Below, piece by piece: positions 1-61,141 of a DNA stretch of 64,000 nt (its first letter is position 1; every line of letters starts with the position of its first letter). The translations under genes were made by a program, and so were the position numbers. The notes beneath the pieces were generated by a model. It was not told the origin of the DNA. It did not search any database and was given only the letters and a program-made list of their open reading frames with translations. Source of the stretch: Planctomycetota bacterium (GTDB lineage Bacteria; Planctomycetota; UBA8108; UBA1146); contig DQQH01000258.1 of assembly GCA_015664425.1 (NCBI GenBank), forward strand, positions 9,359 through 73,358, read 5' to 3'.

Positions 1-2
1 GC

Positions 3-7519: not shown

Positions 7520-7580
7520 CCCTCACCACTTCTTCCCCTCGCAAGCCGTGGGGGTTTTCAGCAATTGAAGGAGACGGACG

Positions 7581-8030
7581 ATGACGACAATCGACCCGCG
7601 TGATGATGCGAGAAGGCTCCGCGACGGATTGCGGCGCCAGAGAGAGATCTACAGCGAACTCTACAACCTCTTCGAACAGACGCTCCTGGAGGGCGCCGAT
7701 GACCTCTTGAACTGGGTGTTCGCCAGCGAGGACGTGGTCAATCGGGCAGCAGTCGTCGACGCAGAGATCGACGAGGTCAAGGAGCGCTGGGAGACCCAGA
7801 GGAAAGATGTTCCCGACGCCCTCATCGCCGAGGTCCGTCTCGAGCGCGACCTTCTCCACCAGAACCTCCAGGACCTCCAGCGGATGCAAGAAAAGCAGTT
7901 GCAGCGCATATCGATGGGTTTCGAGGAGAAGAGCGAGAGGGTCAGAAAGGCCGAGGGACAGCGTCGGATCCAGGAGGTCTACGGTGCCTCTCCGGCGGTT
8001 TCAAACCGGTTCAGCGGCCACCTCGACTGA
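7581..8030 (+). CDS. Hypothetical coiled-coil protein (149 aa)
   Basis: A GGAGACGG RBS precedes the ATG. The sequence is charged and helical, and I recognise no family motif. Confidence 0.45.
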   Translation: MTTIDPRDDARRLRDGLRRQREIYSELYNLFEQTLLEGADDLLNWVFASEDVVNRAAVVDAEIDEVKERWETQRKDVPDALIAEVRLERDLLHQNLQDLQRMQEKQLQRISMGFEEKSERVRKAEGQRRIQEVYGASPAVSNRFSGHLD

Positions 8031-18103: not shown

Positions 18104-18107
18104 TTGG

Positions 18108-19517: not shown

Positions 19518-19548
19518 TCGTGGAGATCAAGGGTATGAAACGGAATCG

Positions 19549-22017: not shown

Positions 22018-22045
22018 GCCCAGCGGCAAGGAATGGTAGTTGCTG

Positions 22046-24145
22046 ATGTCCCCCGTCTTCCTGTGTGTGGTGCTGCTCTTCCCTCCAGTTGCTGTCGATC
22101 CCCCGGAACCGATCGAGCCGTTGCCGTCTGCAAATCAACTGGCCTGGCAAGCGATGGATTACAACGCTTTCGTCCACTTCAACATCAACACCTTTACCGA
22201 TCTGGAGTGGGGGCACGGAACCGAGGACCCCGACACATTTGCTCCACAATCACTCGACTGCCGGCAGTGGTGTCGCATCTTCAAGGAGGCGGGGATGAAA
22301 GGGGTGATCATCACGGCGAAGCACCACGATGGTTTCTGCCTGTGGCCCTCTGAATATTCCGAGCACACCGTGGCCAGGAGTCCCTGGCGAGATGGCAAGG
22401 GGGATCTCCTCCAGGAACTCTCCGATGCCTGCAGTGAGTTCGGTCTGAAGTTTGGGGTCTACCTCTCCCCATGGGATCGTAATCACCCGGCATACGGCGA
22501 TTCTCCCCGGTACAACGAGGTGTTCCGGAACCAGTTGGAAGAGGTCCTCAGCCGCTACGGGGAGGTCTTCGAGGTGTGGTTCGACGGCGCCTGTGGTGAA
22601 GGCCCCAATGGCAAGAGGCAGGTTTACGACTGGCCGTCGTTTCACGAGGTGGTCAAGAGGCTCCAGCCGGGGGCTGTGATCTTCAGCGATGCCGGGCCCG
22701 GGTGCCGATGGGTGGGGAACGAACGCGGCTTCGCTGGTGAGACGAACTGGTCGATGCTGAGGAGAGATGAGTTCTTCCCCGGAACACCGCGCTACCGGGA
22801 GTTGACAGAGGGGCACAGGGACGGCACCCACTGGCTCCCCGCTGAGTGCGATGTTTCGATTCGACCGGGATGGTATTACCACCAGGAGCAGGATGAAAAG
22901 GTCAAGAGTCTCGAGGAACTGATCGAGATCTGGTTCGGGTCGGTCGGTCGTAATGGGTTGTTGCTGCTCAACATTCCCGTCGATCGTCGCGGCCTCGTCC
23001 ACGAGAACGATGCGGTACGGCTTCAGGAATTTCGAGACGCCAGGGAGGCCATATTCGAAAACCGGGCCGCTGGCGCCTCGGTCAGGGCAAGCAATGTGCG
23101 GGGAAAGTCTCCACGCTTCTCAGAAAAAATGATGATAGATGGCGATCCCGAGACTTACTGGGCGACCGATGATGATCTGGAGCGAGCCCAGGTGATGGTG
23201 GAGCTTCCTGCTCCTTCTCTGGTCAGCATGGTCACCATCCGTGAGCCGATCGCCCTCGGACAGAGGATTGCAAGCTTCCTGATCGACGTTCGTGAATCAG
23301 GCACCCTCGTCCGAGTGGCGAGTGGGACGACGGTGGGGAACAGGCGGATCATCCGCTTTCCTCCACGGGTAACGGATGCGATCCGGCTCACCATCGTCGA
23401 GTCCCGGGGGTGCCCTGCGATCTCCGAGATAGAGGTGGGAGCCCTACCGCCACGGGTCGAGATCGTGACCGGGGCCACCCATCTTTCCTCGCCCACCGAG
23501 GTGACCCTGCGATCGGAGACTCCTGGAGCCCGGATTCGCTATACCGTGGATGGCAGCGAGCCGGGAACCGCCTCCCCCCTCTACGAGAGCCCGCTGGTCA
23601 TCGATGGTGATCTGGAGCTGAGAGCGGTCGCTTTCCATCAAGGCCGCCGGGGCATCTTCGAGGCGAGGCAGCGCTTCGAATTTTACAACCAGGATGAATT
23701 TCTTCCGGCGATCCGGTTCATCCGGGCTCCCGAGAGAGGCCTCAACTGGCAGGCCTTCGAAGGAGAGTTCCGCAGCGTTTCGGAACTGGCAGATCGGGAA
23801 CCAGTTGCCACCGGAGAGTGCGAGAAGCCGGAACTCTCGGTGGCCCCACGGTCCGAGCACTTCGGGCTCGTCTTCGGTGGTTTCCTTGAGGTGCCACGGG
23901 ATGGTATCTATGCCTTCGAACTTTCGAGTGACGATGGGAGTCGACTCTGGCTCCACGATCGGCTGCTGGTCGATGGAGATGGATTGCACGGACCCGAGGT
24001 CAGGGGGGGCGCAGTCGGTCTTCGTGCCGGCTGGCACCCGCTACGCATCGCTTATTTCAATGCAACGGGCGAAGCGACCCTCGAACTGAGGTGGAACGGT
24101 CCAGGCCTCAGAGGCAAGGTCCCTTCGCGTTTCTTCGGGCGTTGA
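22046..24145 (+). CDS. GH29 alpha-L-fucosidase with F5/8-type-C-like and C-terminal PA14-like domains
   Basis: ITAKHHDGFCLWPS...FGVYLSPWDRN...VWFDGACGEG is the GH29 core. C-terminal GLNWQAFEGEF...ELSSDDGSRLWLHDRLLVDGDG...ELRWNGPG is PA14-like. Confidence 0.8.
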   Translation: MSPVFLCVVLLFPPVAVDPPEPIEPLPSANQLAWQAMDYNAFVHFNINTFTDLEWGHGTEDPDTFAPQSLDCRQWCRIFKEAGMKGVIITAKHHDGFCLWPSEYSEHTVARSPWRDGKGDLLQELSDACSEFGLKFGVYLSPWDRNHPAYGDSPRYNEVFRNQLEEVLSRYGEVFEVWFDGACGEGPNGKRQVYDWPSFHEVVKRLQPGAVIFSDAGPGCRWVGNERGFAGETNWSMLRRDEFFPGTPRYRELTEGHRDGTHWLPAECDVSIRPGWYYHQEQDEKVKSLEELIEIWFGSVGRNGLLLLNIPVDRRGLVHENDAVRLQEFRDAREAIFENRAAGASVRASNVRGKSPRFSEKMMIDGDPETYWATDDDLERAQVMVELPAPSLVSMVTIREPIALGQRIASFLIDVRESGTLVRVASGTTVGNRRIIRFPPRVTDAIRLTIVESRGCPAISEIEVGALPPRVEIVTGATHLSSPTEVTLRSETPGARIRYTVDGSEPGTASPLYESPLVIDGDLELRAVAFHQGRRGIFEARQRFEFYNQDEFLPAIRFIRAPERGLNWQAFEGEFRSVSELADREPVATGECEKPELSVAPRSEHFGLVFGGFLEVPRDGIYAFELSSDDGSRLWLHDRLLVDGDGLHGPEVRGGAVGLRAGWHPLRIAYFNATGEATLELRWNGPGLRGKVPSRFFGR

Positions 24146-25603: not shown

Positions 25604-26281
25604 TTATTTCAACTCGAGAGTTGTGCGAACCTTGTCTGCCAGGTTCTCGCTGAGATCGGAGATCTGGGCTATCTCGGCAAGGATTCCGAGCCACAGGTGG
25701 AACTCGCTATACGGCAATTGGTCCTCGAGATTGAAAATGACGCGCAGCAAGCTGCGCTGGCAAAGGTCGACCTCATGTTCCTTGACGGCGACCTCGTGGA
25801 CGATCTCCCGGACTCTTTCTGCTTCTGCGCCTCCAAAGCCGCTCTCCAGAAGTTCATCGAGTTCCTCGATGATTCTGGAGGTGAGCTGGAAACAATCTGT
25901 GCTCTTGGCGCAAAATTCGTTGAACAAGTCCTTCATCGGTTCGGGGACGGTGAGGTTTTTCAGAGTGCAGAGAACCGCCACGTTTTCGGCGGTGTCTGCA
26001 ATTTCATCCTGGGTGGAGAGAATCTCGAGAATCTTCCCGCGGTCTACGGCAAGGAAGAGTCCTCTCGGCAGATGGTTTCTGATGTCGTTTTTGACCAGAT
26101 CTGCTTCGTGTTCGGACTTGGAAATTTTTCGGGCGAGTTCGGCGATCATCGGATGGTCGCCTGCGAGGAACGCCTTGAACAATCCACCCAGTTCATCTAC
26201 GCATTCTCCCACTTTCCGCATGTGGGACTGAAGCGGCACGAAAGGTGATTTTCCGAACAGGCTTGCAAAGGTGCGCATCAA
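25604..26281 (-). CDS. PhoU-like DUF47/TIGR00153-family phosphate-transport regulator
   Basis: 225-aa helical protein immediately upstream of PiT in the canonical pairing. N-terminal FGKSPFVPLQSHMRKVGECV resembles the family. Confidence 0.7.
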   Translation of the reverse strand: MMRTFASLFGKSPFVPLQSHMRKVGECVDELGGLFKAFLAGDHPMIAELARKISKSEHEADLVKNDIRNHLPRGLFLAVDRGKILEILSTQDEIADTAENVAVLCTLKNLTVPEPMKDLFNEFCAKSTDCFQLTSRIIEELDELLESGFGGAEAERVREIVHEVAVKEHEVDLCQRSLLRVIFNLEDQLPYSEFHLWLGILAEIAQISDLSENLADKVRTTLELK

Positions 26282-26476
26282 TTTTCCTCTGGTTCTTCTC
26301 GAGATTCATTCCCGGGCCTGGATCAATTCGGCTACTCACCATTCGCCGGGAAGGATGGCAATTTATCAAAATATGTGAAGGTATTTCTTTTTCCCTGAAT
26401 CCCTCGAGGGCAGCGAATGCGAATAGGGGGCTAGAAAGGCATTTCAGGGGGGGCGCCCCGGAGAATCGACATCCGG

Positions 26477-26518
26477 AAAATTAAAAGAGCGCCCCGCGGG
26501 ATTCCCGCAGGGCGCTCT
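26477..26518 (-). terminator. Rho-independent terminator downstream of the OMP gene
   Basis: 15-bp stem with 14 pairs (AGAGCGCCCCGCGGG/CCCGCAGGGCGCTCT). On the minus strand it is followed by TTTAATTTT. Confidence 0.7.
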
Positions 26519-26544
26519 TCTGGGGGGCGAAAAAACCGCTGCTT

Positions 26545-27120
26545 CTACCAGTTCCAGCCTAGAGAGATTCCGACCGACTGGCGGTCGAAAGCCTTGTCGT
26601 CGTAAATACAGCTGCGGTAATCGAAACCGATGTGAGCATTGTCCCCGAGATGGATGTAGCCGCCACCGTGGAAATAGAAACCCGTTTCCGATGCATCGAC
26701 TCCGTTGTTGGTCGAGTCGAGCAGAGCGATTCCACCACCGCCAAAAGCTGAGAAGGGAGTGAAGGGGAAGTTGGCGGTGACCCGTCCACCCGCGACGAAC
26801 TCAGCGAAGCGTAGTTCGATCGGCCCATCCTTTTCCCCGACCACGTTCACTCCCACCTCAGGGGCGAGGTACCATTCGCTCTTGCGAGCGCTGACCATCA
26901 CGCCACCACCATCGACCGACTTGTAAATGTTCAGATCCGAATTGGTGCCATAGTCATAGACTGCGCTGTGGAAACTCACTGTCCCGCTGTAGGGGGACAG
27001 GTTCGGCTGTTCGACGCCGGAGAAGGGCGATTTTGCTTCCGGGCGGAAGCGCACGAAATCTTCGTCAACGGCACAACCCGCGCAGAGGAGCAACAGGCAG
27101 AGCATCAATGGGACTCGCAT
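26545..27120 (-). CDS. Small outer-membrane beta-barrel-like lipoprotein (hypothetical)
   Basis: Signal/lipobox-like MRVPLMLCLLLLCAGC, Gly/aromatic-rich alternating strands, and a C-terminal ...GISLGWNW. Confidence 0.5.
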   Translation of the reverse strand: MRVPLMLCLLLLCAGCAVDEDFVRFRPEAKSPFSGVEQPNLSPYSGTVSFHSAVYDYGTNSDLNIYKSVDGGGVMVSARKSEWYLAPEVGVNVVGEKDGPIELRFAEFVAGGRVTANFPFTPFSAFGGGGIALLDSTNNGVDASETGFYFHGGGYIHLGDNAHIGFDYRSCIYDDKAFDRQSVGISLGWNW

Positions 27121-27167
27121 CGTCCGCTGGCCTTTCTCAGGGTTCACCTTCCGATGAACCGTTGGAA

Positions 27168-27594
27168 TGGGGGAAGCGGGAGAATCGAACTCCCGCTGGC
27201 CGGTGGTGCCGATCCCACCCTCGACAGCAGTGTCGGGAGGGAAGAAACGGGTGCACCCCAGGCACGCTTCATTCTTTCACCGAGTCGGGATTCTAGTCAG
27301 GACAGCCCGCCGCGGCAAGGTAGCCGCTGAGGTCCGCGGGGGACCCGGTTCCACTCCGACCCGCCCTCTTCCCGGTCCCAAGCCTCGGTTCGGGGGCTTC
27401 CTCGGATCGAGCACTGGGTTCCCTTGAGAGGGGATCGGCGAATTCGAGCTCGAGTTGCGGCCCTCGAGGAGGGTCTGGCCAGCGGACGGTCCCAAGGGAG
27501 AGCGAGCCCCTTCCCGGGTGAATTCCCACCATCCTCGCCGACTGAGTTCGCAGAATGATTCAGTTTCTTCCGGTTGAAGCCTGATCTTCACCCC
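27168..27594 (-). ncRNA. ssrA: Candidate tmRNA (ssrA), atypical
   Basis: On the minus strand the 5' end reads GGGGUGAAGAUCAGGCUUCAACCGG (compare the tmRNA consensus GGGGnUGA...GGnUUCGAC). The 3' end is a tRNA-like T-arm, GGGAG-UUCGAUU-CUCCC, followed by CUUCCCCC-A. A long-range P2-like pairing joins 5' GGAAGAAAC and UCAUUCU to 3' AGAAUGA and GUUUCUUCC. No tag reading frame could be identified by eye. Confidence 0.5.
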
Positions 27595-27795
27595 GATGAT
27601 GGGGACCACGGCGGTGGTTGTCCTCCTCTACTGGCGGTCCCACGGGGGCGGCCAATGCCACCGGGGGGATCCTGGCAAATGGGGCCACCCGAGGGGGCCG
27701 AAGGGGCGGACGGCTGATCCTGAAGCGCTGTCGCAAGCGTCACTCCCTGGTGGACTTCCGCTGACAAAAGGGGGCAAATGAGGGCTGCCCATCCC

Positions 27796-27823
27796 TTGAC
27801 ACCGATGGGGTATCGCGTAGGAT
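27796..27823 (+). promoter_or_regulatory. Sigma70-like promoter candidate (TTGACA-16-TAGGAT)
   Basis: Exact -35 hexamer TTGACA at 27796-27801, a 16-nt spacer, and TAGGAT at 27818-27823. It lies about 510 nt upstream of the first ATPase start. Confidence 0.2.
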
Positions 27824-28070
27824 TTCATCGTCCTCTTCCTTCAAGGAGAGGGTGAAGCAAGAGTCTGTATTCACGGCTCCCTGGGTCGGTTCAGCTGTCG
27901 GGAGTCGTGGTGTCGGGGAGAATCGCAGGTCGCCCCCATTTCCAGTTCTCCTGATCGTCTCCTGCGTCCGATACAGCAGATCGGGGTCCGGAAAGAGACA
28001 TTCTGCGAGCGCTCCTCCTGTTAGGTCGGGTGTTCAGGGGAAGTCTGAAGAAAAGACTGTCGAGCGCCTG

Positions 28071-36989: not shown

Positions 36990-38852
36990 ATGGCAAAAGG
37001 GTTTTTCAAAGACAATGAAAAAGTGCTGATGACGCTGCTCTTGCTGTTCATCGCTCCGACCTTTGCGCTCACCGGGCTGACGACCTGGTGGCTCGGCTAC
37101 GCAGGGGGTGACGCCGCCTACGAGATCTTCGGGGAGAGCGTCAGTTACGCCCAGGTTCTCGAGAAGCGCACCGAACTTGCCAACACCCTCTGGCTTCAGG
37201 GAGTGCTGCAGTACGGTTGGTACGGCGCGAGGCAGCCTCGGCGGGCAAGCGATGAGGATGTCCTGCAGGCGTTCATGTTCGAACATGAACTCGAGGAGCT
37301 CGATCTCGAACTGAGTGACGGTGAGTATCAAGAAGCCTTGCGCCAGGCGGCGCTCTCGATGATCGCCTGGCATCAGGTGCTGGAAAATACAGGGGGGTTC
37401 GGGGCATTCCAGGATAACTTCACCCTGTACAACAGCATTCGACCGTCGGTGACATTCAATGGTGATCGATACCTCCGGGCCATCCAGGATCCCGACATGG
37501 GATTGGGACTCAGCATTCAGGAGTTCGAAGCGGGGGTGATCAAGGCCAACCGCACCGCCAAGCTGATCGAATCTGTCACATCCGCTGCAATTGTCACCGA
37601 GAAGGAAATTTACGACGAATTCCTCCTGGGCCAGCAGAAGCGAGTCTTCGAGATCGTCAGTATTGGCGATCAGCAATTTTCAGCGGAGGCGCTCGAACAA
37701 CTGGATCAGGACTACTTCCGGCAGGTTTACGACAACTCACCCGAGGACTACAAATCGCCGACTCGAATCCAGCTCGAGGTTGCCCGTGTGGTGCTGGCAA
37801 ACCTGAGAGATGATGACTACCAGCCGGCTACTGAAGAGATCGAGGCTTTCTACGAGGCGAACAAGGACCCCGCATGGAGAATCAAGCGCCCGGTGAACTA
37901 TGTTCCTCCCGAAAACGCCCAGCCTGAAGACGACTTCCGTCCGATCACCGATGTCTTCGAGGGGATCATCTCCAGGATTCGCCAGGAGAGAGCCAAGGCA
38001 AGGGAGGGCGAGATTCTCGAGGCGGCCCTCGCCGAAGGCCAGGCGAAGAGTGCTGCCGGTGGAAACTTCGAGATGCCAGATCTCTTCGGGGATGCCAAGG
38101 AGTTCGTCGAGGTCCACACTACCGAGCCCTTCGGCAACACCGAGTACTCCAGGATCGAGCCATGGATGCGGAATGCTGCTCACCTGTCGCCCCTCTTCGT
38201 TGACCTTCGCCTCGATCCAGAGTTGTTCAAGCCCGGAACGATGTCCAAGGCGATCGTTCCGGGGACCCAGGGAAGTTACATCTACCGCCTGGTGGAAGTA
38301 TTCCCCGAGTCGACGATGACCTTCGAGGAGGCACTCGACAAGGTGATGGAAAAGGCAGAGAAGGAGAAGGCGAAAGAACTCGCCTCCAAATTCATCAGCG
38401 ACTGGATCACGAGCGCTACAGAGGAGGAGCCCGTCTCTCTGGAGTCATTTGCCTCGGAGCAGAACCTCACTGTCCACACCAGTGATGCTGTCGGTCGGAA
38501 CGAGGCCTGGAGGCTGCGCCTCGATACCAGAGCTCCACTTGCAAACCTGGAAATTCTTAGCGAAGGATTCGCATTGCTCGAGGAAGGGCAGGTCGGCGGC
38601 CCGGTGACCAACGACAGGGATACCAACGTCTACGCCCTCAGCCTCAAGACGATCGAATCTCCGGAAATAATCCTCTTCAACATCTACCGCAATTCGATCG
38701 ACGCGCAGATTCGACGGAACAAGCAGCAGGCCATCCTCGAACAGTACAGGGCAGATCTCAGCCGCAAGGCGGATGTCCGGGTCTACACCAGCCGATCTTC
38801 CGATCCGTCGCCGCTTCCGGAGTTTGGAGCGACGAGTCAGCCGGCGAGTTAG
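36990..38852 (+). CDS. PpiD/SurA-N-like membrane-anchored periplasmic chaperone (no clear rotamase motif seen)
   Basis: N-terminal anchor VLMTLLLLFIAPTFALTGL followed by a long acidic/helical periplasmic region. The call rests on architecture and the FKBP neighbour rather than on a strong motif. Confidence 0.45.
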   Translation: MAKGFFKDNEKVLMTLLLLFIAPTFALTGLTTWWLGYAGGDAAYEIFGESVSYAQVLEKRTELANTLWLQGVLQYGWYGARQPRRASDEDVLQAFMFEHELEELDLELSDGEYQEALRQAALSMIAWHQVLENTGGFGAFQDNFTLYNSIRPSVTFNGDRYLRAIQDPDMGLGLSIQEFEAGVIKANRTAKLIESVTSAAIVTEKEIYDEFLLGQQKRVFEIVSIGDQQFSAEALEQLDQDYFRQVYDNSPEDYKSPTRIQLEVARVVLANLRDDDYQPATEEIEAFYEANKDPAWRIKRPVNYVPPENAQPEDDFRPITDVFEGIISRIRQERAKAREGEILEAALAEGQAKSAAGGNFEMPDLFGDAKEFVEVHTTEPFGNTEYSRIEPWMRNAAHLSPLFVDLRLDPELFKPGTMSKAIVPGTQGSYIYRLVEVFPESTMTFEEALDKVMEKAEKEKAKELASKFISDWITSATEEEPVSLESFASEQNLTVHTSDAVGRNEAWRLRLDTRAPLANLEILSEGFALLEEGQVGGPVTNDRDTNVYALSLKTIESPEIILFNIYRNSIDAQIRRNKQQAILEQYRADLSRKADVRVYTSRSSDPSPLPEFGATSQPAS

Positions 38853-54064: not shown

Positions 54065-57000
54065 ATGACCCGTGAGGAACCGATCGACATGACACCGCAG
54101 GATGCTGAGGATCGGGGCCTCTCACCCGACCGGAACGAGATCCTCGATGAACTCGAGGATCTGATCCGCTGCGCTCTCCTCGCCGAGAGAGGCCAGGGAA
54201 GCGGCGTTGCCCTTGTCCTGGTTCGTGGTGCCAGTGGCCAGGGGAAAAGCCGCCTCGTCGAGGACCTCCTCGAACGCCTCGGAGATGAACGTCCTCTCTT
54301 CCAGGAGGTGGAGTGTCACGAGCGCCAGGGGATTCCCTTCCTGCCGGTGCTCCGTTTGATCAAGAACCTCATCGTATCCAGTCTCGCCCCGCGGGAGTTG
54401 TGGAGAAAATACGCTCACGTTCTGACCCGGGTATTCCCTGAACTGGTGGAGCAACTCGGAGGAGCCATGCCCCCCGATCCTCTGCCCGGGGAGGATGGTC
54501 GGATCCAGTTCCATCAGGCTCTCACCAGTATCCTCCTCGAGTTGGCTGCGGAGAGACCGCTTCTACTGGCGATCCACGACATCCATCGCTGTGATCGGGG
54601 GACGATCGAGTTCATCACATTTCTCGCTCGCAACGTGTTCCTCTCGACCGGCGGCCAACGCTCCGAGGTCGATGCGTCCGCTGGTTCAGAGGAGGGTTCC
54701 CGGGAGTGGAAGCAAATTCACACCCGTGAAGGTCGCGATGGGAAATCGGTCTCGGAGTTCCTCGAATCGGATGAGGGCTCCACCTCCGAGGGGTCTCCGG
54801 GTGCCAGGATCCAGATCGTCGTCAATTACACCTCAAAGGACAGCGCTGCTCGCCTCGCCGGGGAAACGGACGAGGTCCTCGCCTCCCTCGGGCGCCTGGC
54901 AAAGGAGCCCTTCTCGCGGCATTTTGATCTGCCTCCCCTGATGCCTGGCGATCTGGCACAGATGGTCGAGACGGAGGTCGAAGCCCGCTGCGAGCCGGGA
55001 CAGATCGAGAGGGTGTACGAGGCCACCGGAGGCAACCCGCTGCGCGCCCTCGACCTCTGTCGTCTGGTGTCGGAGAGTGGCGGGAACTGGCGGCTTCTCG
55101 ACGACATCTTGCCGGCGATACTCCCGAAAGGAGCGAGTTCTGCTCAGGAGCAGCTGGGGCGTGGCGTCTTCATGAGGCGTCTTGCCTCCTTGCCTGCCCT
55201 ACAGGTGATGGTGCTTCGTTACCTGGCGCTTCTCCGTCGCCCCGCCGATGCCGTCTTCATCGGTGAGGCCTGTCAAAGTGACCCCCAGATCCTCGATGAA
55301 GCCTTGCTGGAACTGACCGATCGAGGGTTCATCCGCTCGCGTCAGGTTCGCAACCTGTCTCGCTTTCACATCGGACATGAGGACCATCTGCGCTGGATTC
55401 GCAGAGGGATCGAGCCCTCCGAAGCCCGACGCTTACAGGGAGATCTGGGACGGATTCTGGCGGAAGATCCACGCGCGAGTGAGCCGGTCAGATCGTTCGA
55501 GATCTACGAGCAGTTGCGGGCTGCAGGTCAACTCGAGGAGTGTAGGGGCCATGGGTTTTCGGCGTTCCGCTTCTTCTCCAGCGCTTACGCCGAGCACCTC
55601 GCAATCCGGGTTGGCCGTGAACTGATCGACTCCCTCGGGGCCGACGGTGATCCGGAGATGCGTCACGACGTGCTGATGGAACTCATCGAGCTGGAGATGG
55701 GGACCGGCCAGCAGGAACTTGCCAAGGCCCACGCCAAGTCCCTCATCGAGGATCCAGAACTGCCGGCTGGCCCGCGTCTCGAGGGGCTGCTCCTCCTCGC
55801 CGAGATTTACTGCCAGCTGGGTGAACCCCTCAAGGGGATCAAGGCCCTCAACCGAGTGCCACGGGAGACGGTGGCGACGGTGGGGGGGCTCTCCGAGGCG
55901 CGCATCACAACAAAGCGCGCACGTCTCCGCCTCGAGCGCCGGGATTTCAAGCGTGCGATCAGCCTCTGCCTGCGGGGCCTCAAGGAACTCGAAGGCACCG
56001 CTGAAGAGCCAGTTCATCTCTCATTGCGTGCCGATCTTCTCGAGTTCCTTTCCGAGGCGCACCTTCGTCGAGGAGAGACCGTCTCGGCCCTGAACCACTA
56101 CCAGTCCCTGCTCGAACTGGTCGAGGGGCTCGGAGATGATGTCCGCCTCTCCTCGGTGCTGAGGACCCTGAGCCGGGTCTACTACGATCGAGGAAATCAT
56201 TTCCGCTCCGCTCGATACCTCTTCCGTGCACTCGAGGTGATCGAGCGCACACGCGATTTCCGCGCTCTGGCCTCCACCTACGAACTCCTCGGCAAGGTCT
56301 ACCGGAATTCAGGCGATTTCCCTCGCAGCCTGGAACACTTCCGACTCAGCTTGCGCCTCCGGGAAAAGATTGGTGATGCGAAACTTCTGTCACCGACGCT
56401 CAATTCCATCGGCAGTCTGCATTCCCACAACGGTGATTACGCTCGTGCCATCCGCTATTTCAAGCGCAGCGTGACCAACAGCGAACGGTTCGGCAGCACC
56501 GATGGAATCGTCCGCTCCTTCCTCCATCTTGGCTGGGTCTTTCACGAGTTGGGCGAACGCAAGCAACTGGAGAGTCTTTGCCGACAGGTGCTGATTCTCT
56601 CCCAGGAGTTCGATCTCCTCGATCTGGAAGCAGAAGGCCACCGGCTCGCAGGAAGCCTCGCCTTCCTCAGGGGGGACTTGAAGAACTCCGAGAAGGAATT
56701 CCGGCGCTCCCTGGAAATCGCCCAGAAGAGAGGAATGACCAAACTCGCAGCTGCCAGCCACCTCGACCTGGCTGCCCTCGAGCAGAAGCGCGAGCGATAC
56801 GAAGCTGCCCTCAAACTGGTCAGCCGGGGAATACTCCAGGCTGAAGAGATCCAGTCGATCCCGTTCCAGGTCAGGGGATTGCTTCTCAAGGGAGAGATTT
56901 CCCGCCATCTCCGCGGTGGCAGCCCAGAACGGACCCGGGAGTGCTACGAGAAGGCGGTCACCCTGGTCTCCGGGGAGACGCTGATGCCGTTGCAGTGGTC

Positions 57001-58429
57001 CCTCTTCTATGCCATGGCTCGCCTCCACCAGACGACGATGGAGGTTGCCGAAGCGCGGCGCTCTTATGACCGTGCGGATCAGATCATCGAACGCATCTCT
57101 TCTCGTCTTCCCGAGGATATGCGGGTCGTCTTCAGAGACGATCGCCGCAGGAAGAACTTCTTCACCGACCTCCAGAGGTTCCGCAAGGAGTCGAGCGAAC
57201 TGGTCACGGTGGAGACCATTTCTCAGGAAGGAAAGGAGGTGACCGGAGAGCGGCCACTCTCTGACTCCGCCGCTGGGCCGGATGGCGATGGCCTCCTCGT
57301 TCGGTTCTTGCCGGTGATCGACCGCCTGGCGATCGCTGAGGATCTGGCGACCTTCTTCCACAGTCTTCTCGAAGAAGCGCGTCGGCTGGTTCCCTCTCCT
57401 CGGGGTTTCATCCTCGAGAGGATCGGTTCGCGCTGGAAGGTGTTTTCCGAGATCGACATGGGTCAGAAGGAGTCGTGGGCGGTCGATGACAGCTTGCCCG
57501 GGGCAATCTCTCTCCTCACCATCGACCGGGATCAGGTGCTTCGTTCCGGTGGCGAGGAGTGGATGAAACTGGTCGAGGACTCCCAGGAAGGGTCCAGTTA
57601 CAAGGGCCGCTCGATGATGGCGATCCCGGTTAAGTTGCCCGACAGGTTTTCAGGGGTTCTTGTTCTGGAGCGTCCCACCGCTGGCAACCCCTTCCAGGAA
57701 GAGGACGGAGATCACCTTCTACAGCTGCTCCGGGTGCTCGGAGGGCAGTTTCGTGCCCTCGTAGCCGGTGACAGTCTCGCTCGCTTCGAGCGGACCTCCA
57801 TCCTCACTCCGAGTGGCTTCGAGGCGAACCTCGGTTACCTCCTCGAGAAGCAGAAGCGCGACAAGGTCCCCCTGGGAGCGATCGAGATGGTGATCCCGGG
57901 GTTGGATCATTTGATACGCCAGCGCACCGGAGAAGAAATCGTCGACAGGTTCAGCGATCTGGCCGGACCTGGTGTCGTTCATTGCCTCCGTCCAGCGGGA
58001 GACCGATACGTCTTCCTTTATCTGGGGCGAAGCCTCGAAGACCTCCAGCAGAAATCCCGGGATCTGGGCCACAGGATCTCCGAACTTCGGGAAGGTGTGG
58101 GTCTGGCCGATCGTTGCGAGATCGACATTTTTGTACACCACATGCCCCTGGACGACAGCGGTCTCGATGGGCTCCGCCGGGCCGGTGCGGGGTATTTCTG
58201 TTCGGGCGAGGTCCCACAGATCGAGAGCGAAGTCGCGACCCTCACCGGCGGGGGTATCTCATTGAAAGAAGCGAAAAGGGCCCTGGAGAAGCGTTACATC
58301 GTCTCCGCCCTGCACAAGAGCGAAGGTAACGTCACCCATGCTGCCGAGGCGTTGGGGATGCACCGCCCGCAGCTTTCCAACCTGTTGAAACGCCATGGCA
58401 TTCGCAGGGAAGACTTCGAGCGCTCCTGA
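54065..58429 (+). CDS. Giant multidomain regulator: AAA_16/STAND-type NTPase + TPR array + GAF-like domain + degenerate GGDEF-like domain + C-terminal Fis-type HTH
   Basis: Walker A GASGQGKS and Walker B LLLAIHDIHRCD are present, followed by many TPR-like repeats (...YYDRGNHFRSARYLFRALEV...). A GAF-like block (RSMMAIPVKLPDRFSGVLVLERP) comes next. The GGDEF-like block has AGDRY in place of GGDEF (HCLRPAGDRYVFLYLG). The HTH_8 motif is EKRYIVSALHKSEGNVTHAAEALGMHRPQLSNLLKRHGI. The ATG at 54065 follows a GAGGAGG RBS. Confidence 0.7.
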   Translation: MTREEPIDMTPQDAEDRGLSPDRNEILDELEDLIRCALLAERGQGSGVALVLVRGASGQGKSRLVEDLLERLGDERPLFQEVECHERQGIPFLPVLRLIKNLIVSSLAPRELWRKYAHVLTRVFPELVEQLGGAMPPDPLPGEDGRIQFHQALTSILLELAAERPLLLAIHDIHRCDRGTIEFITFLARNVFLSTGGQRSEVDASAGSEEGSREWKQIHTREGRDGKSVSEFLESDEGSTSEGSPGARIQIVVNYTSKDSAARLAGETDEVLASLGRLAKEPFSRHFDLPPLMPGDLAQMVETEVEARCEPGQIERVYEATGGNPLRALDLCRLVSESGGNWRLLDDILPAILPKGASSAQEQLGRGVFMRRLASLPALQVMVLRYLALLRRPADAVFIGEACQSDPQILDEALLELTDRGFIRSRQVRNLSRFHIGHEDHLRWIRRGIEPSEARRLQGDLGRILAEDPRASEPVRSFEIYEQLRAAGQLEECRGHGFSAFRFFSSAYAEHLAIRVGRELIDSLGADGDPEMRHDVLMELIELEMGTGQQELAKAHAKSLIEDPELPAGPRLEGLLLLAEIYCQLGEPLKGIKALNRVPRETVATVGGLSEARITTKRARLRLERRDFKRAISLCLRGLKELEGTAEEPVHLSLRADLLEFLSEAHLRRGETVSALNHYQSLLELVEGLGDDVRLSSVLRTLSRVYYDRGNHFRSARYLFRALEVIERTRDFRALASTYELLGKVYRNSGDFPRSLEHFRLSLRLREKIGDAKLLSPTLNSIGSLHSHNGDYARAIRYFKRSVTNSERFGSTDGIVRSFLHLGWVFHELGERKQLESLCRQVLILSQEFDLLDLEAEGHRLAGSLAFLRGDLKNSEKEFRRSLEIAQKRGMTKLAAASHLDLAALEQKRERYEAALKLVSRGILQAEEIQSIPFQVRGLLLKGEISRHLRGGSPERTRECYEKAVTLVSGETLMPLQWSLFYAMARLHQTTMEVAEARRSYDRADQIIERISSRLPEDMRVVFRDDRRRKNFFTDLQRFRKESSELVTVETISQEGKEVTGERPLSDSAAGPDGDGLLVRFLPVIDRLAIAEDLATFFHSLLEEARRLVPSPRGFILERIGSRWKVFSEIDMGQKESWAVDDSLPGAISLLTIDRDQVLRSGGEEWMKLVEDSQEGSSYKGRSMMAIPVKLPDRFSGVLVLERPTAGNPFQEEDGDHLLQLLRVLGGQFRALVAGDSLARFERTSILTPSGFEANLGYLLEKQKRDKVPLGAIEMVIPGLDHLIRQRTGEEIVDRFSDLAGPGVVHCLRPAGDRYVFLYLGRSLEDLQQKSRDLGHRISELREGVGLADRCEIDIFVHHMPLDDSGLDGLRRAGAGYFCSGEVPQIESEVATLTGGGISLKEAKRALEKRYIVSALHKSEGNVTHAAEALGMHRPQLSNLLKRHGIRREDFERS

Positions 58430-58470
58430 GGAACTTCCCAAGAAACCAGGGTGCCCCGAGATGGCCAGAG

Positions 58471-58498
58471 GGCCCGGGTGCGCGCAAGCGCCCGGACC
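58471..58498. terminator. GC-rich hairpin with a GCAA loop between convergent genes
   Basis: GGCCCGGGTGCGC-GCAA-GCGCCCGGACC forms an imperfect stem. It lies between the regulator stop (58429) and the histone-fold gene stop (58529). There is no clear U-tract. Confidence 0.35.
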
Positions 58499-58528
58499 CT
58501 TCAGCCCTGGTCTCAATTTGCCGTCGAG

Positions 58529-58726
58529 TCAGTTGCAGTTGAAATCGTGTGCGCGGACGGTCTTGCGACCGTTGGCGCCGGCACGGCTTGCAGCCTGCTG
58601 GATGTACCAGTGGATGACTTCGTTGAGACCGTCAAGGGCGTCACCACCCACGTTGACCCCGTGACCCTTGAGGGCAGCCTTGGCCTTGCTGCCGACCAGG
58701 AGCATCTCCTTCGTCTGAGTGTTCAT
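58529..58726 (-). CDS. Singlet histone-fold DNA-binding protein (bacterial histone-like, 65 aa)
   Basis: MNTQTKEMLLVGSKAKAALKGHGVNVGGDALDGLNEVIHWYIQQAASRAGANGRKTVRAHDFNCN. The ANGRKTVRAHD block matches the archaeal histone signature (HMfB ...AGRKTIKAEDI...). The helix-loop-long-helix-loop layout and size fit a single histone fold. An alternative start at 58765 adds 13 aa. Confidence 0.65.
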   Translation of the reverse strand: MNTQTKEMLLVGSKAKAALKGHGVNVGGDALDGLNEVIHWYIQQAASRAGANGRKTVRAHDFNCN

Positions 58727-59110
58727 AAGGACAGAATCCTTCCGAAAATCGACTCCCGGACCCAACTCGAGTCCGGCGGAGCGCCCCGTAGCCCTCCAGT
58801 CCTTCGTACCTCGAGGCTGCCTGGCATGGTGCCGCGGTACCTCGGCCCATTACGGGTTCGGGCCAGGAAACGCAGCAGGCGGCCTCTCGGGCTCATGACG
58901 CGTCCGATTGTGACAGTATTACCTCCCAGGGAAAGATCAATTTTGCCCCAGACTGCCCACAGGAGCCCATCAGAGGTGAAACCGTACTCGGTCGGGGAGG
59001 CCTCGGGGTCAGTTTCGAGCAGCCAAGAATGCCTTCTTTATTAGGCCTAAGCCTTTTTGAAGAAATGAGTTAAGGCTATCTCTCCTGGGTTTCTCCCGGT
59101 CCACCTGGGC

Positions 59111-61141
59111 TCAGGAGTGAATGAAGGGAGCAGGATGGCGAGGTCCCTTCTCGAGGAAGTTCTGGATTCCGATATTCATATCTCGAGTGGCGCAGACTTC
59201 GCCGAACATCCGGGCCTCGAATGCGATCCCTTCCTTCAGAGGTAGGCGGCACCCCTCGAGGATCGCCCTCGAGAGGATCCCATCGACCATTCGACTGAGG
59301 TGTCCCAGGTCGACCTCCGGAAGCATCTCGGGAACCTGGATCGGGCCCTTCTGGATCTCTGGAAGCGGAGTTTCTCCCGCCACGGCCGCTCTGACCATGT
59401 CGATCCCGGTCGAGAGCAACTGCTCCTTGCTGCCCGGGACCTCCCGTTCGATCAGGCCGATTCGGAGCGCTTCTGAGCTGGAAACGGGTCGTCCGGTGCG
59501 CATCAACTCGGAAGCCTTCTCGATGCCGACCCAGCGCGGGAGGCGCTGTGTTCCGCCTCCACCTGGGATGATACCGAGGTTTACCTCGGGTTGGCCGGCG
59601 AGGACCTTCAATCCCTCCCGGGCAATCCGGGCATTGCACGCCAGTGCGATCTCGTTCCCACCTCCGAGAGCGAGGCCGTTGAAGGCGCAGACGACAGGTT
59701 TGGGACAGTCCTCGATTGCCTGGATCGAGAGTTGGGAACCGGATGAAGTTTTCTCCCCCATCTCCTTGCTGTCGATTTTTGCAAGGAACCCGACATCTGC
59801 CCCGGAGGCGAAAGCCTTCACCCCGTAGCCGGTCAGGACCGCGCCGATGACGCTGTCATCGGCAGCGATGTCGAGGAAATGCTGCTTAATCTCCTCGAAG
59901 GTGGCTTCATTGAGAGCGTTGAGGGCTCGCGGGCGCCGAATGCAGACGATGGCCACCTCTTCCCGATCCCACCTGAAAACGGTTGCGATGGGAAACGGTT
60001 CACCGAGCCCTGCCTGCTCCACGAGGCAAAGTGGGACCGAGAACCCCGGGTTTTTCGCTGCGTAGTTTTCGACCAGTCCCAGAGATTTCTCGAGGCCGAT
60101 GCGATTCATCAGGCGGAAAGGGGCGTGCATGTCGAGGGCAATCTCAACCGCCATGTCGAGGTCTGCCACGCTGGAGATGCCGCTGTCGACGATTTCACCG
60201 ACGATGCCGAAGTAAGCTCCCAGGAGTGATTCCGAGATCAGTGCGGATCTCTCCGGCTCCACCTCGACCCCTTCTCCCCGAGCCGGGACCTCCCATCGGC
60301 TCTGATTCTTGACGGCATCCTTGAGAATCTGTGGCGAGCGGTACCAGGGCATGATCCTCGATGTGTAGTTCCCAAGCCCGACGTCGGTGATCGGATTTCC
60401 TCCGGTGAGATTCATCGCTGTGAAGGGGCCGACGGTGTATCCGAGAGTCTTGCAGGCGACCGCGTCGACCTCCTTCGATGTACCTTTGCCCTCCTCTACG
60501 AGGAGCGCCGAAGCGAGGAAGAGTCCCTCGAAGATGGGGTCGATCGCGTATCCGTAACGACTTCCCACCTCGATGGGGAACTTGCCGATCTCCTCGTAGA
60601 AACCCATCACCGCCCTCCCCAGGCCCGGGTCGCTTCCCGCCCCAGATACCACCTCAACCACGGGATTGCGCTCCGCCGGGAAGAAGTAGTGCACTACCAG
60701 CGATCGGGAGGGGTCCTCGAGGCCACCGAAGATCACTTCCGGCTCGAGGTGAGAGGAATTCGAGCACAGGATTGCTCCGTCGGAGACGATCGCTGTCAAC
60801 TGATTGAAGATTTTCCCCTTGAGGTTGCTGTCCTCGGTGGCCGCCTCGACCACGAGATCTGTGCCGGCGAGTTGCTGGTAGTCGTCGGTGAAAGTGACGT
60901 TCCCCTTCATCGCCTCGCCGGCATCGACGGTGAACGCACCAGATTCCACACCCTTGTCGACCTTTCTGTCGAGCTTCTTCCTGCCATTCTCGAGCGCCTC
61001 TCGGCTGACGTCGACGACGATGACAGGCACTCCCTGGGGCGTGAAGACCTTGCTGAAATGGAGAGCGATGTCAGGGCCGATCTGGCCTGACCCGATGACC
61101 CCGATCTTGGTGATCGGCCGATCGAGAATTTGCAGCGTCAT
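59111..61141 (-). CDS. Bifunctional 3-hydroxyacyl-CoA dehydrogenase (N-terminal) / enoyl-CoA hydratase (C-terminal), FadN-type order
   Basis: N-terminal Rossmann motif KIGVIGSGQIGPDIA. C-terminal crotonase region RRPRALNALN...FASGADV...AFNGLALGGGNEIALAC. The ATG at 61141 was chosen over the ORF-track start at 61330. Confidence 0.8.
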   Translation of the reverse strand: MTLQILDRPITKIGVIGSGQIGPDIALHFSKVFTPQGVPVIVVDVSREALENGRKKLDRKVDKGVESGAFTVDAGEAMKGNVTFTDDYQQLAGTDLVVEAATEDSNLKGKIFNQLTAIVSDGAILCSNSSHLEPEVIFGGLEDPSRSLVVHYFFPAERNPVVEVVSGAGSDPGLGRAVMGFYEEIGKFPIEVGSRYGYAIDPIFEGLFLASALLVEEGKGTSKEVDAVACKTLGYTVGPFTAMNLTGGNPITDVGLGNYTSRIMPWYRSPQILKDAVKNQSRWEVPARGEGVEVEPERSALISESLLGAYFGIVGEIVDSGISSVADLDMAVEIALDMHAPFRLMNRIGLEKSLGLVENYAAKNPGFSVPLCLVEQAGLGEPFPIATVFRWDREEVAIVCIRRPRALNALNEATFEEIKQHFLDIAADDSVIGAVLTGYGVKAFASGADVGFLAKIDSKEMGEKTSSGSQLSIQAIEDCPKPVVCAFNGLALGGGNEIALACNARIAREGLKVLAGQPEVNLGIIPGGGGTQRLPRWVGIEKASELMRTGRPVSSSEALRIGLIEREVPGSKEQLLSTGIDMVRAAVAGETPLPEIQKGPIQVPEMLPEVDLGHLSRMVDGILSRAILEGCRLPLKEGIAFEARMFGEVCATRDMNIGIQNFLEKGPRHPAPFIHS

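What the first reader, a model, noticed from the sequence alone, without database searches (positions are those of the whole stretch)
58529..58726. Stand-alone bacterial histone-fold gene
This 65-aa ORF carries ...SRAGANGRKTVRAHDF. That is essentially the loop-2/alpha-3 signature of archaeal histones (I recall HMfB ...KHAGRKTIKAEDIELA). An N-terminal short helix (LLVGSKAKAALK), a loop (GHGVNVGGDA) and a long central helix (LDGLNEVIHWYIQQAASRA) precede it, giving a complete single histone fold with a truncated alpha-3. Bacterial singlet histones (Bdellovibrio and Leptospira type) were only recently shown to be real chromatin proteins and remain poorly surveyed. The gene has its own ~385-bp upstream region and is convergent with a 1454-aa HTH regulator.
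Basis: partly seen in the sequence, partly recalled or inferred. Interest (0 to 1): 0.72.

Follow-up and report, generated by a model that had tools for sequence, protein, structure and literature searches.

The report
Planctomycete face-to-face bacterial histone gene
This 65-residue gene from an uncultured marine Planctomycetota bacterium really does encode a bacterial histone, but it belongs to the already described "face-to-face" subgroup, so it is a correct call and not a new kind of protein.

Summary
The ORF is real: minus strand, 58529-58726, ATG start, 65 aa. dN/dS against syntenic relatives is 0.04-0.11. The identical protein sits on at least 22 hydrothermal-vent and plume contigs. NCBI holds it as 'hypothetical protein [Planctomycetes bacterium]'.

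It is a histone-fold protein. Its best solved relatives by sequence are the Leptospira perolatii histone HLp (E 4e-10; family profile 6e-17), the Bdellovibrio histone HBb and the archaeal HTkC. An AlphaFold model (pLDDT 90) superposes on HLp at 0.9 Å (TM 0.94).

It carries every residue that defines the face-to-face (FtF) subgroup of alpha3-truncated histones, at the published logo positions: K16, R48, N52, R54, T56 and D61. All are invariant across 44 homologues. The most likely function is a small basic nucleoid protein that forms a torus-shaped tetramer and wraps about 60 bp of DNA without sequence preference, as shown for HLp. The tetramer and DNA binding are inferred, not tested.

Pfam gives no hit at all. 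The family is no longer poorly surveyed: published surveys already list Planctomycetota, and I found relatives in at least 539 species genomes. Verdict: new member of a known kind, moderate to low interest. Side observations: a conserved upstream hairpin with compensatory changes, and a clade-specific C-terminal cysteine.

The parts
58529..58726 (-). Histone CDS: 65 aa, 6.9 kDa, pI 9.4. It is an alpha3-truncated, face-to-face (FtF) type histone fold. Helix alpha1 spans residues 12-20, alpha2 spans 30-51, and a one-turn alpha3 spans 59-61. Key residues are K14/K16/K20 (alpha1 lysines), R48/N52 (dimer-dimer interface), R54-K55-T56 (L2 loop) and D61 (RD clamp).
58737..58743 (-). Shine-Dalgarno-like GGAAGGA, 10 nt upstream of the ATG. 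Relatives carry AGGAAAGG 5-8 nt upstream of theirs.
   Evidence: sequence reading; function inferred
58727..59110 (-). 384-bp spacer between the fadB-like stop codon and the histone ATG. Its length (about 340-360 bp) and several sequence blocks are kept in syntenic marine Planctomycetota loci. It is the presumed promoter plus a long 5' UTR. No sigma-70 consensus promoter was found in it.
58844..58864 (-). Conserved hairpin GGCCC-GAACCCGTAAT-GGGCC with a CCGY loop motif. In relatives, 3 of the 5 stem pairs show compensatory C-G to U-A changes. The window has a G-U pair that is only valid on the histone sense strand. A conserved CATGCC follows at 58828-58823. The composite motif occurs once in the 64-kb window.
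58469..58500 (-). GC-rich hairpin in the 99-bp gap between the two convergent stop codons. It is probably a bidirectional terminator or a 3' stabiliser, and it has no U-tract. Across the 106-nt region the fold z-score is -2.5.
54065..58429 (+). Convergent neighbour: a 1454-aa protein with an AAA_16 (STAND-like) ATPase, TPR repeats and a C-terminal Fis-type HTH_8. The adjacency to the histone is kept in 17 Planctomycetota loci at 39-49% identity. No functional link has been shown.
59111..61141 (-). Upstream same-strand neighbour: a 676-aa FadB-like fusion of 3-hydroxyacyl-CoA dehydrogenase and enoyl-CoA hydratase. It is syntenic in 14 loci and is context only.

Best explanation
The gene encodes a face-to-face (FtF) member of the alpha3-truncated prokaryotic histone family, on the chromosome of an uncultured marine or hydrothermal-plume Planctomycetota bacterium.

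Shown here: it is a conserved protein-coding gene under strong purifying selection. Its predicted fold is a histone fold with a shortened alpha2 and a one-turn alpha3. Its nearest solved relative is the Leptospira perolatii histone HLp.

Inferred by homology: two chains pair head-to-tail into a histone dimer. Two dimers then join on both sides, through R48, N52, R54 and the C-terminal residues, into a closed torus-shaped tetramer. The tetramer binds DNA phosphates without sequence preference. The contacts would be the alpha1 N-terminus with its lysines (S13, K14, K16, K20) and the L1/L2 'beta-bridge' (G28, K55, T56). About 60 bp would wrap around the tetramer, so the protein acts as an abundant nucleoid-associated chromatin protein.

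It is transcribed on its own, from within the 384-bp spacer, with a structured 5' UTR, and it ends at a GC-rich hairpin shared with the convergent gene.
For: Sequence matches to solved structures:
- phmmer against the PDB gives HLp 9qt0 at E 4.1e-10 over residues 5-62, HBb 8cmp/8fvx at about 4e-4, and HTkC 9f2c at 0.17.
- The family profile gives HLp 5.6e-17, HBb 2e-9, HTkC 1.3e-7, HmvA 9e-5, and then the M. kandleri and Asgard histones. Every hit is a histone.

Predicted structure:
- The AlphaFold2 model has mean pLDDT 90.4.
- The top Foldseek PDB hits are HLp (TM 0.94 on target, rmsd 0.9 Å, 47% identity), HBb and HTkC. Nucleosomal, NF-Y and eukaryotic histones follow.

Defining residues:
- The invariant columns among 44 homologues are S13, K14, K16, N25, L34, N35, Q44, R48, N52, R54, K55, T56, V57 and D61.
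- The FtF HMM logo is defined by K16, R48, N52, R54, T56 and D61 (Schwab 2024).
- HLp tetramer contacts R49, N53, R55 and F63, and the RD clamp R55-D62, map to query R48, N52, R54, F62 and R54-D61.
- HLp DNA contacts S14, K15, K17, K21, G29 and T57 map to identical residues S13, K14, K16, K20, G28 and T56.
- HBb has S and D at the R48 and N52 positions.

Physical properties and selection:
- The protein is 6.9 kDa with pI 9.4.
- dN/dS is 0.04-0.11.
- The histone is 71-88% identical across loci whose neighbouring genes are only 39-68% identical.

Genomic setting:
- The surroundings are chromosomal planctomycete DNA: PSCyt1/PSCyt2/PSD1, DUF1501, FtsH, a 2-oxoacid dehydrogenase complex and RNase R.
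- NCBI labels the identical protein as coming from Planctomycetes MAGs.

Published function of the family:
- HLp is a tetramer that wraps about 60 bp of DNA and reorganises the E. coli nucleoid (PMC12701072).
Against: - No experiment or expression data exist for this protein or for any planctomycetal histone.
- Two HLp interface residues differ: S52 becomes A51 and T61 becomes H60.
- One HLp DNA-contact residue differs: T27 becomes V26.
- The protein has the RKT motif with an invariant K55. That motif is typical of nucleosomal and 'bacterial dimer' histones and not of the FtF logo. A dimer-like or mixed binding mode is therefore not excluded.
- Pfam does not recognise the protein, and NCBIfam scores it below its cut-off.
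- Unlike most homologues, it has no basic N-terminal tail.
- Whether it is the main nucleoid protein cannot be judged from a 64-kb window. No HU-like gene lies in the window, but that says nothing about the rest of the genome.
Confidence: 0.75

Rival explanations
1. It is an HBb-like 'bacterial dimer' histone. It would stay a dimer and compact DNA by sharp bending (or by end-on coating), rather than forming a DNA-wrapped tetramer.
For: It shares the alpha3-truncated fold with HBb (TM 0.83-0.87, rmsd about 1.0 Å). It has the RKTxxxD motif with an invariant K55, which Schwab 2024 lists for bacterial dimers and says is weak in the FtF logo. Bacterial dimer histones are also reported from Planctomycetota.
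Against: Bacterial dimers are defined by the absence of R48 and N52. Both are invariant here, and HBb has S and D at those positions. The sequence is much closer to HLp than to HBb: 4e-10 against 4e-4 for the single sequence, and 6e-17 against 2e-9 for the profile.
Confidence: 0.15
2. It is a histone-fold protein that does not organise chromatin globally. It could be a low-abundance specific regulator, or a partner of the conserved neighbouring AAA_16/TPR/HTH_8 protein.
For: The histone-regulator adjacency is kept in 17 loci, although the regulator is only 39-49% identical. Schwab 2024 cautions that not all prokaryotic histone-fold proteins need be genome organisers. No expression data are available.
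Against: The two genes are convergent and so are not co-transcribed. The adjacency is confined to one Planctomycetota clade, and other phyla have different neighbours, which fits inherited synteny. All DNA-phosphate contact residues of HLp are kept except one. Extreme sequence conservation across phyla is typical of abundant architectural proteins.
Confidence: 0.07
3. It is not a real gene: a chance ORF in GC-rich DNA whose RKT motif is coincidental.
For: The region is full of spurious ORFs of similar length. Pfam finds nothing.
Against: There are 770 homologues, with E-values down to 5e-33, and relatives in at least 539 species genomes. dN/dS is 0.04-0.11 with saturated synonymous sites. The structural model is confident and matches solved histones.
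Confidence: 0.01

Closest known systems
HLp, the face-to-face histone of Leptospira perolatii (PDB 9QT0/9QT1/9QT2; Hu et al. 2025, PMC12701072)
   Same: - It is the same length class (63-65 aa) and the same alpha3-truncated histone fold. The model superposes at 0.9 Å with 47% identity.
- The tetramer-interface residues are the same: R49/N53/R55/F63 in HLp correspond to R48/N52/R54/F62 here.
- The RD clamp is the same.
- The alpha1 S-K-x-K...K DNA-contact pattern is the same.
   Different: - L2 reads RKT here and RTT in HLp, which adds a basic residue at the DNA-facing beta-bridge.
- Interface residues S52 and T61 of HLp are A51 and H60 here. The DNA-contact residue T27 is V26.
- The host phylum differs (Planctomycetota, not Spirochaetota).
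- The gene neighbourhood differs: fadB and an AAA_16/TPR/HTH_8 protein here, SMC, MAP and DUF350 in Leptospira.
- There is a clade-specific C-terminal cysteine.
- Nothing has been measured for this protein.
HBb (Bd0055), the bacterial dimer histone of Bdellovibrio bacteriovorus (PDB 8FVX/8CMP/9EZZ)
   Same: It has the same alpha3-truncated singlet fold (TM about 0.85, rmsd 1.0 Å, 35-37% identity), the RKTV motif, the RD clamp and the conserved S-K motif at the alpha1 N-terminus.
   Different: HBb lacks R48 and N52 (it has S and D there) and is strictly dimeric, bending DNA. The query keeps both residues and is much closer to HLp by E-value.
HTkC, the archaeal FtF histone of Thermococcus kodakarensis (PDB 9F2C)
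   Same: It has the same fold (TM 0.79-0.88, rmsd 1.2 Å) and the same FtF logo residues. It has been shown to form a torus-shaped tetramer.
   Different: Identity is only about 31%. It falls in the archaeal cluster, which is separate from the bacterial FtF cluster.
Nucleosomal archaeal histones (HMfB/HMfA; NCBIfam NF043032; Pfam CBFD_NFYB_HMF)
   Different: The query's alpha3 is one turn long, against about 10 residues in these histones, and its alpha2 is shorter. It does not reach the family thresholds: 19.7 bits against a 50-bit cut-off, and no Pfam hit. The structural match is clearly weaker (TM 0.55-0.6, rmsd 2.5-2.8 Å). The tetramer geometry differs from the four-helix-bundle hypernucleosome.

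Membership tests
alpha3-truncated prokaryotic histones (Schwab et al. 2024) | Histone fold: helix - loop - long helix - loop - helix | tested here: met
   The AF2 model has pLDDT 90.4, with helices at 12-20 and 30-51 and a turn at 59-61. All significant Foldseek PDB hits are histones.
alpha3-truncated prokaryotic histones (Schwab et al. 2024) | alpha3 reduced to 3-4 residues, and alpha2 shorter than in nucleosomal histones | tested here: met
   In the model alpha3 spans residues 59-61 and alpha2 has 22 residues. The model superposes at 0.9-1.2 Å on HLp, HBb and HTkC, against 2.5-2.8 Å on HMfA and HPhA.
alpha3-truncated prokaryotic histones (Schwab et al. 2024) | RxTxxxxD motif (L2 loop plus RD clamp) | tested here: met
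   R54, T56 and D61 are present and are invariant in 44 homologues.
Face-to-face (FtF) histones | Conserved dimer-dimer residues R48 and N52 (HLp R49 and N53) | tested here: met
   Both are present at exactly these positions and are invariant in alignment A1. Their role is described.
Face-to-face (FtF) histones | Conserved alpha1 lysine K16, with further lysines at positions 12, 14 and 20 at lower frequency | tested here: met
   K14, K16 and K20 are present; K14 and K16 are invariant and K20 is at least 90% conserved. Position 12 is G.
Face-to-face (FtF) histones | Closed, torus-shaped homotetramer (the feature that defines the group) | not testable with these tools
   The structure tool predicts single chains only. 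The tetramer is inferred only from the interface residues.
Face-to-face (FtF) histones | Closer in sequence to FtF members than to other histone groups | tested here: met
   By profile, HLp scores 5.6e-17, HBb 2.1e-9 and nucleosomal histones 6e-3 or weaker.
Face-to-face (FtF) histones | Non-specific DNA binding and wrapping of about 60 bp | not testable with these tools
   This needs EMSA, MNase or TPM assays. Six of the eight mapped HLp DNA-contact residues are identical; T27 is V26 and T56 is K55.
Bacterial dimer histones (HBb type) | Absence of R48 and N52, with no oligomer beyond the dimer | tested here: not met
   R48 and N52 are present and invariant. HBb has S and D at these positions.
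Bacterial dimer histones (HBb type) | RKTxxxD motif | tested here: met
   R54-K55-T56...D61 is present, and K55 is invariant. The feature is shared and does not discriminate between groups.
Nucleosomal archaeal histones (NCBIfam NF043032 / Pfam CBFD_NFYB_HMF) | Score above the curated family threshold | tested here: not met
   NF043032 scores 19.7 bits against a cut-off of 50. No Pfam family is found at E<=10.
DUF1931 pseudodimeric histones (Pfam PF09123; Aq_328 type) | Two fused histone folds, and a match to the DUF1931 model | tested here: not met
   The protein has a single 65-aa fold and no Pfam hit. The 'DUF1931 domain-containing' label carried by some NCBI homologues and by the 9qt0 entry is a naming legacy. 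Hu 2025 places DUF1931 in a separate cluster.

The most novel reading that the evidence does not exclude
In this uncultured marine and hydrothermal Planctomycetota clade, the FtF histone would be the principal chromatin protein and would be controlled in two clade-specific ways. First, post-transcriptionally, through the conserved 5'-UTR hairpin (CCGY loop followed by CATGCC), which covaries like a functional RNA. Second, at the protein level, through the conserved C-terminal cysteine. That cysteine lies next to the C-terminal residues that form the dimer-dimer contact in FtF tetramers, so oxidation or disulfide formation could lock or alter the tetramer. The result would be a redox-responsive bacterial 'nucleosome'.
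Probability: 0.08. Interest if true: 0.6.

Novelty: new member of a known kind. Interest (0 to 1): 0.33.

Why it matters
It corrects a 'hypothetical protein' annotation (HIA28362.1 / HIN81043.1) to a bacterial histone. It also adds a well-supported FtF histone from a deep-sea Planctomycetota lineage. That phylum is known for unusually condensed nucleoids, and none of its histones has been studied experimentally.

The result shows that the current Pfam-A models miss this whole branch, even though it occurs in at least 539 species genomes across Planctomycetota, Acidobacteriota, Krumholzibacteriota, Bdellovibrionota, Elusimicrobiota and Myxococcota.

It does not change the picture set by Hocher 2023, Schwab 2024 and Hu 2025, who had already reported such histones in Planctomycetota. 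The conserved 5'-UTR hairpin and the C-terminal cysteine are small leads that could be tested.

Tried and rejected
- **Pfam-A scan of the protein:** no hit at E<=10.
- **NCBIfam scan:** only a sub-threshold archaea_histone match.
- **Sigma-70 promoter scan of 58300-59300:** no sites. One weak terminator-like site was found, at chance level.
- **Rfam gathering-threshold scan of the whole window:** no family, so the upstream hairpin is not a known RNA.
- **RNAalifold on the whole 5' region:** the consensus was weak (-5.9 kcal/mol) because MAFFT misaligns the window sequence. MAFFT also placed a gap inside the stem of the short hairpin alignment. I therefore counted the pairs by hand-set register in a script.
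- **Search for a second histone copy or an HU gene in the window:** none found.
- **Search for a neighbour gene conserved across phyla:** none found. Neighbourhoods are lineage-specific. The SMC/MAP neighbourhood reported for Leptospira did not appear among the recurrent neighbour clusters I checked.
- **Longer 78-aa TTG-initiated ORF:** rejected.
- **Mobile-element or phage origin:** rejected, because the window carries housekeeping and planctomycete-specific genes.

Full report
**1. The observation**

It lies on the minus strand from the ATG at 58726 to the TGA at 58531-58529 and encodes 65 aa: MNTQTKEMLLVGSKAKAALKGHGVNVGGDALDGLNEVIHWYIQQAASRAGANGRKTVRAHDFNCN.

The mechanical ORF extends upstream to a TTG at 58765 (78 aa), but the ATG is the better start for three reasons:
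- Gene callers on six independent contigs aa.
- The closest homologue begins MSTQTKEM.
- GGAAGGA lies 10 nt upstream, and relatives have AGGAAAGG 5-8 nt before their own ATG.

The context claims also hold. A 384-bp spacer (58727-59110) separates the gene from the stop codon of a same-strand FadB-like gene. The gene is convergent with a 1454-aa AAA_16/TPR/HTH_8 protein ending at 58429, with a 99-bp gap between the stops.

Short ORFs are abundant by chance in this 60.4% GC DNA, so the ORF alone means little. Conservation is what makes it real:
- It has 770 homologues, with E-values down to 4.8e-33.
- Pairwise dN/dS against ten relatives is 0.04-0.11, with dS above 1.2.
- The histone core is 77-88% identical in loci whose neighbouring genes are only 39-68% identical.

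**2. What it is**

NCBIfam 'archaea_histone' (NF043032) matches at E 8.5e-4 and 19.7 bits, well under its 50-bit cut-off.

*Solved structures, by sequence.* These give a clear answer.
- The single sequence hits HLp of Leptospira perolatii (9qt0) at 4.1e-10 over residues 5-62. It hits HBb/Bd0055 of Bdellovibrio (8cmp, 8fvx) at about 4e-4 and HTkC (9f2c) at 0.17.
- A profile of 44 homologues raises these to 5.6e-17, 2e-9 and 1.3e-7. It also adds HmvA, the M. kandleri histone and the Asgard histones. Nothing other than histones is found.

*Predicted structure.* An AlphaFold2 model built on that alignment has mean pLDDT 90.4. It shows helices at 12-20 and 30-51 and a single turn at 59-61. Foldseek against the PDB ranks the hits as follows:

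| Target | TM-score | rmsd | Identity |
|---|---|---|---|
| HLp | 0.94 (on target) | 0.9 Å | 47% |
| HBb | about 0.85 | 1.0 Å | 35-37% |
| HTkC | 0.88 | 1.2 Å | about 31% |
| Nucleosomal, NF-Y and eukaryotic histones | 0.4-0.6 | 2.5 Å or more | lower |

**3. Which kind of bacterial histone**

Schwab et al. 2024 (PMC11390915) divide the alpha3-truncated family into face-to-face (FtF) tetramers, 'bacterial dimers' (HBb type) and minor groups.
- FtF histones are defined by a torus-shaped tetramer. Their most conserved logo positions are K16, R48, N52, R54, T56 and D61.
- Bacterial dimers lack R48 and N52.

The window protein has K16, R48, N52, R54, T56 and D61 at exactly those positions, and all are invariant in the 44-sequence alignment. 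HBb has S and D at the R48 and N52 positions.

I mapped the protein onto the HLp crystal structures (Hu et al. 2025, PMC12701072). HLp paper numbering is the query number plus one.

| Role in HLp | HLp residue | Query residue | Conserved? |
|---|---|---|---|
| Tetramer contact | R49 | R48 | yes |
| Tetramer contact | N53 | N52 | yes |
| Tetramer contact | R55 | R54 | yes |
| Tetramer contact | F63 | F62 | yes |
| Tetramer contact | S52 | A51 | no |
| Tetramer contact | T61 | H60 | no |
| RD clamp | R55-D62 | R54-D61 | yes |
| DNA contact | S14 | S13 | yes |
| DNA contact | K15 | K14 | yes |
| DNA contact | K17 | K16 | yes |
| DNA contact | K21 | K20 | yes |
| DNA contact | G29 | G28 | yes |
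| DNA contact | T57 | T56 | yes |
| DNA contact | T27 | V26 | no |
| DNA contact | T56 | K55 | changed to a basic residue |

The K55 change yields the RKT motif of nucleosomal and dimer histones, which the FtF logo conserves only weakly. The protein is small and basic, at 6.9 kDa with pI 9.4.

The tetramer itself could not be modelled.

**4. Organism and surroundings**

The identical protein is in NCBI as HIA28362.1 and HIN81043.1, 'hypothetical protein [Planctomycetes / Planctomycetota bacterium]'. It also occurs on at least 22 contigs from hydrothermal-vent and plume metagenomes. One of these is the 64,673-bp JGI contig KiloMoana_10000069, which is probably the source of the window.

The window carries planctomycete-typical families (PSCyt1/PSCyt2/PSD1, DUF1501). 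It also carries housekeeping genes: FtsH, a 2-oxoacid dehydrogenase complex with LipA/LipB-like genes, RNase R, a PiT transporter, T2SS/T4P ATPases, and Sua5. It is ordinary chromosome, not a mobile element. The window holds no second histone copy and no HU-like gene.

The order 'fadB, about 350-bp spacer, histone, then the convergent AAA_16/TPR/HTH_8 gene' is kept in 14-17 marine Planctomycetota MAG loci. Other phyla have other neighbours. One example is a cyclophilin-FKBP isomerase upstream of the histone in 12 Krumholzibacteriota and Myxococcota loci. The neighbourhood therefore looks like inherited synteny and not a functional module.

**5. Distribution and prior knowledge**

A scan of one genome per species found at least 539 genomes with a relative. 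They span Planctomycetota, Acidobacteriota, Krumholzibacteriota, Bdellovibrionota, Elusimicrobiota, Myxococcota and others. An exhaustive profile search of 1.84 billion representatives gave 1197 clusters at E<=1e-3 and 154 at E<=1e-10.

Three published studies already cover this ground:
- Hocher et al. [quoted passage not shown]
- Schwab 2024 lists Planctomycetota among the main bacterial hosts of FtF histones.
- Hu 2025 showed that HLp is a tetramer wrapping about 60 bp.

No paper in the searched library characterises a planctomycetal histone experimentally. The finding is a correct identification of a new member of a known, recently described family.

**6. Mechanism**

The most likely mechanism has three steps:
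- Head-to-tail dimers form through the alpha2 helices.
- Two dimers close face to face through R48, N52, R54 and the C-terminal residues.
- The basic rim of the tetramer binds DNA backbone non-specifically and wraps about 60 bp. The rim consists of the alpha1 N-terminus with K14, K16 and K20, and the L1/L2 bridge with G28, K55 and T56. The result is an abundant nucleoid protein.

The gene, its fold and its residue conservation are shown here. The oligomeric state, DNA binding, abundance and physiological role are inferred from HLp, HTkC and the L. interrogans histone. The main rival is an HBb-like dimer that bends DNA. It is disfavoured because R48 and N52 are present and because the sequence is much closer to HLp than to HBb.

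**7. Side observations in the transcript**

The 384-bp upstream spacer is alignable across relatives whose proteins have diverged to 45-68% identity. It contains a hairpin at window 58864-58844, GGCCC-GAACCCGTAAT-GGGCC, whose loop keeps a CCGY motif.
- In relatives, three of the five stem pairs show C-G to U-A double changes in different lineages.
- The window has a G-U pair that is only valid on the histone sense strand.
- A conserved CATGCC follows the hairpin.
- The composite motif occurs once in the 64-kb window and once per closely related locus, always upstream of the histone.
- Rfam has no match.

This points to a structured 5' UTR element, but I did not go beyond these counts.

Downstream of the gene, a GC-rich hairpin at 58469-58500 lies between the convergent stop codons. 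The fold z-score is -2.5. It is a plausible shared terminator, and it has no U-tract.

**8. Verdict**

It is a new member of a known kind, and the interest is moderate to low. It would rise only if the clade-specific features (C-terminal cysteine, invariant K55, lack of a basic tail, 5'-UTR hairpin) turn out to have functional consequences.

Noticed in passing
window 58823-58864 (-); also L007 5835-5855, L009 5833-5853, L011 5848-5865, L012 3307-3324, L023 3991-4008: A conserved hairpin lies 100-145 nt upstream of the histone ATG. It has a 5-6 bp stem and a CCGY loop motif and is followed by CATGCC. Three of five stem pairs show compensatory C-G to U-A changes in different lineages, and the window has a G-U pair valid only on the sense strand. 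The composite motif occurs once per locus. Rfam has no match. It is probably a 5'-UTR element of the histone mRNA.
   Followed up: partly
window 58532-58537 (-), codons 64-65; relatives L007-L014, L023, L024: A cysteine two residues after the terminal DF is kept throughout the syntenic marine Planctomycetota clade (DFNCN here, DFTC, DFIC or DFVC in relatives). It is present in only 15 of the 120 top homologues. In FtF tetramers the C-terminal residues sit at the dimer-dimer interface, so a redox or disulfide role is conceivable but untested.
   Followed up: partly
proteins P0122-P0128, P0130: The best-scoring 50%-identity representatives are 118-128-aa proteins made of two tandem copies of this same FtF-type fold, each with its own R..ANGRKT motif. 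These look like natural pseudodimeric doublets of the alpha3/FtF family, distinct from DUF1931 doublets. I did not check their genomic origin or whether they have been described.
   Followed up: no
protein P0180 (650 aa): This long protein has its last 60 residues as an FtF-type histone fold. Its N-terminal part contains a sigma-70 region-4-like HTH (…LREVAEETGVSRPMVSKIKRSALEKLR…). It could be a genuine fusion or an over-extended gene call.
   Followed up: no
L019 4500-5669 and 11 other loci (L021, L026, L044, L053, L062, L073, L075, L078, L080, L082, L085): In Krumholzibacteriota and Myxococcota genomes, a cyclophilin-FKBP double peptidyl-prolyl isomerase sits directly upstream of the histone gene in 12 loci from two phyla. 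The significance is unknown.
   Followed up: partly
window 54065-58429 (+): This 1454-aa protein combines an AAA_16 (STAND-type) ATPase, many TPR repeats, an unassigned region of about 400 aa and a C-terminal Fis-type HTH_8. Its convergent adjacency to the histone is kept in 17 Planctomycetota loci, although the protein is only 39-49% identical across them.
   Followed up: partly
window 58727-59110 (-), alignment A2/A3: Compared with relatives, the window's spacer lacks about 11 bp between the conserved 'CTTTCC' block and the 'GGCTATCCT'-like block. It also has about 15 extra bases between the hairpin and CATGCC, and a longer distance from the SD-like motif to the ATG. The promoter was not identified by a sigma-70 consensus scan.
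   Followed up: no
window 14771-19517 (+): A gene pair typical of Planctomycetota: PSCyt1-PSCyt2-PSD1 (1110 aa) followed by DUF1501 (sulfatase-like, about 415 aa domain). PA14-domain proteins and an alpha-L-fucosidase lie at 19483-24145. This supports the taxonomic assignment.
   Followed up: partly
window 1-7900, 25700-27850 and 36990-38852: Several long ORFs have no Pfam match, or only a sub-threshold one (656-2026, 1117-2598, 2603-3520, 4923-6323; 36990-38852 has only a weak Rotamase_2 hit). Two stretches have no ORF of 230 aa or more. I did not examine them further.
   Followed up: no
whole family: Pfam-A (2025 copy) does not detect this histone branch at all. NCBI labels members variously as 'hypothetical protein' or 'DUF1931 domain-containing', while JGI calls them 'histone H3/H4'. 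This is an annotation gap for a family present in at least 539 species genomes.
   Followed up: yes
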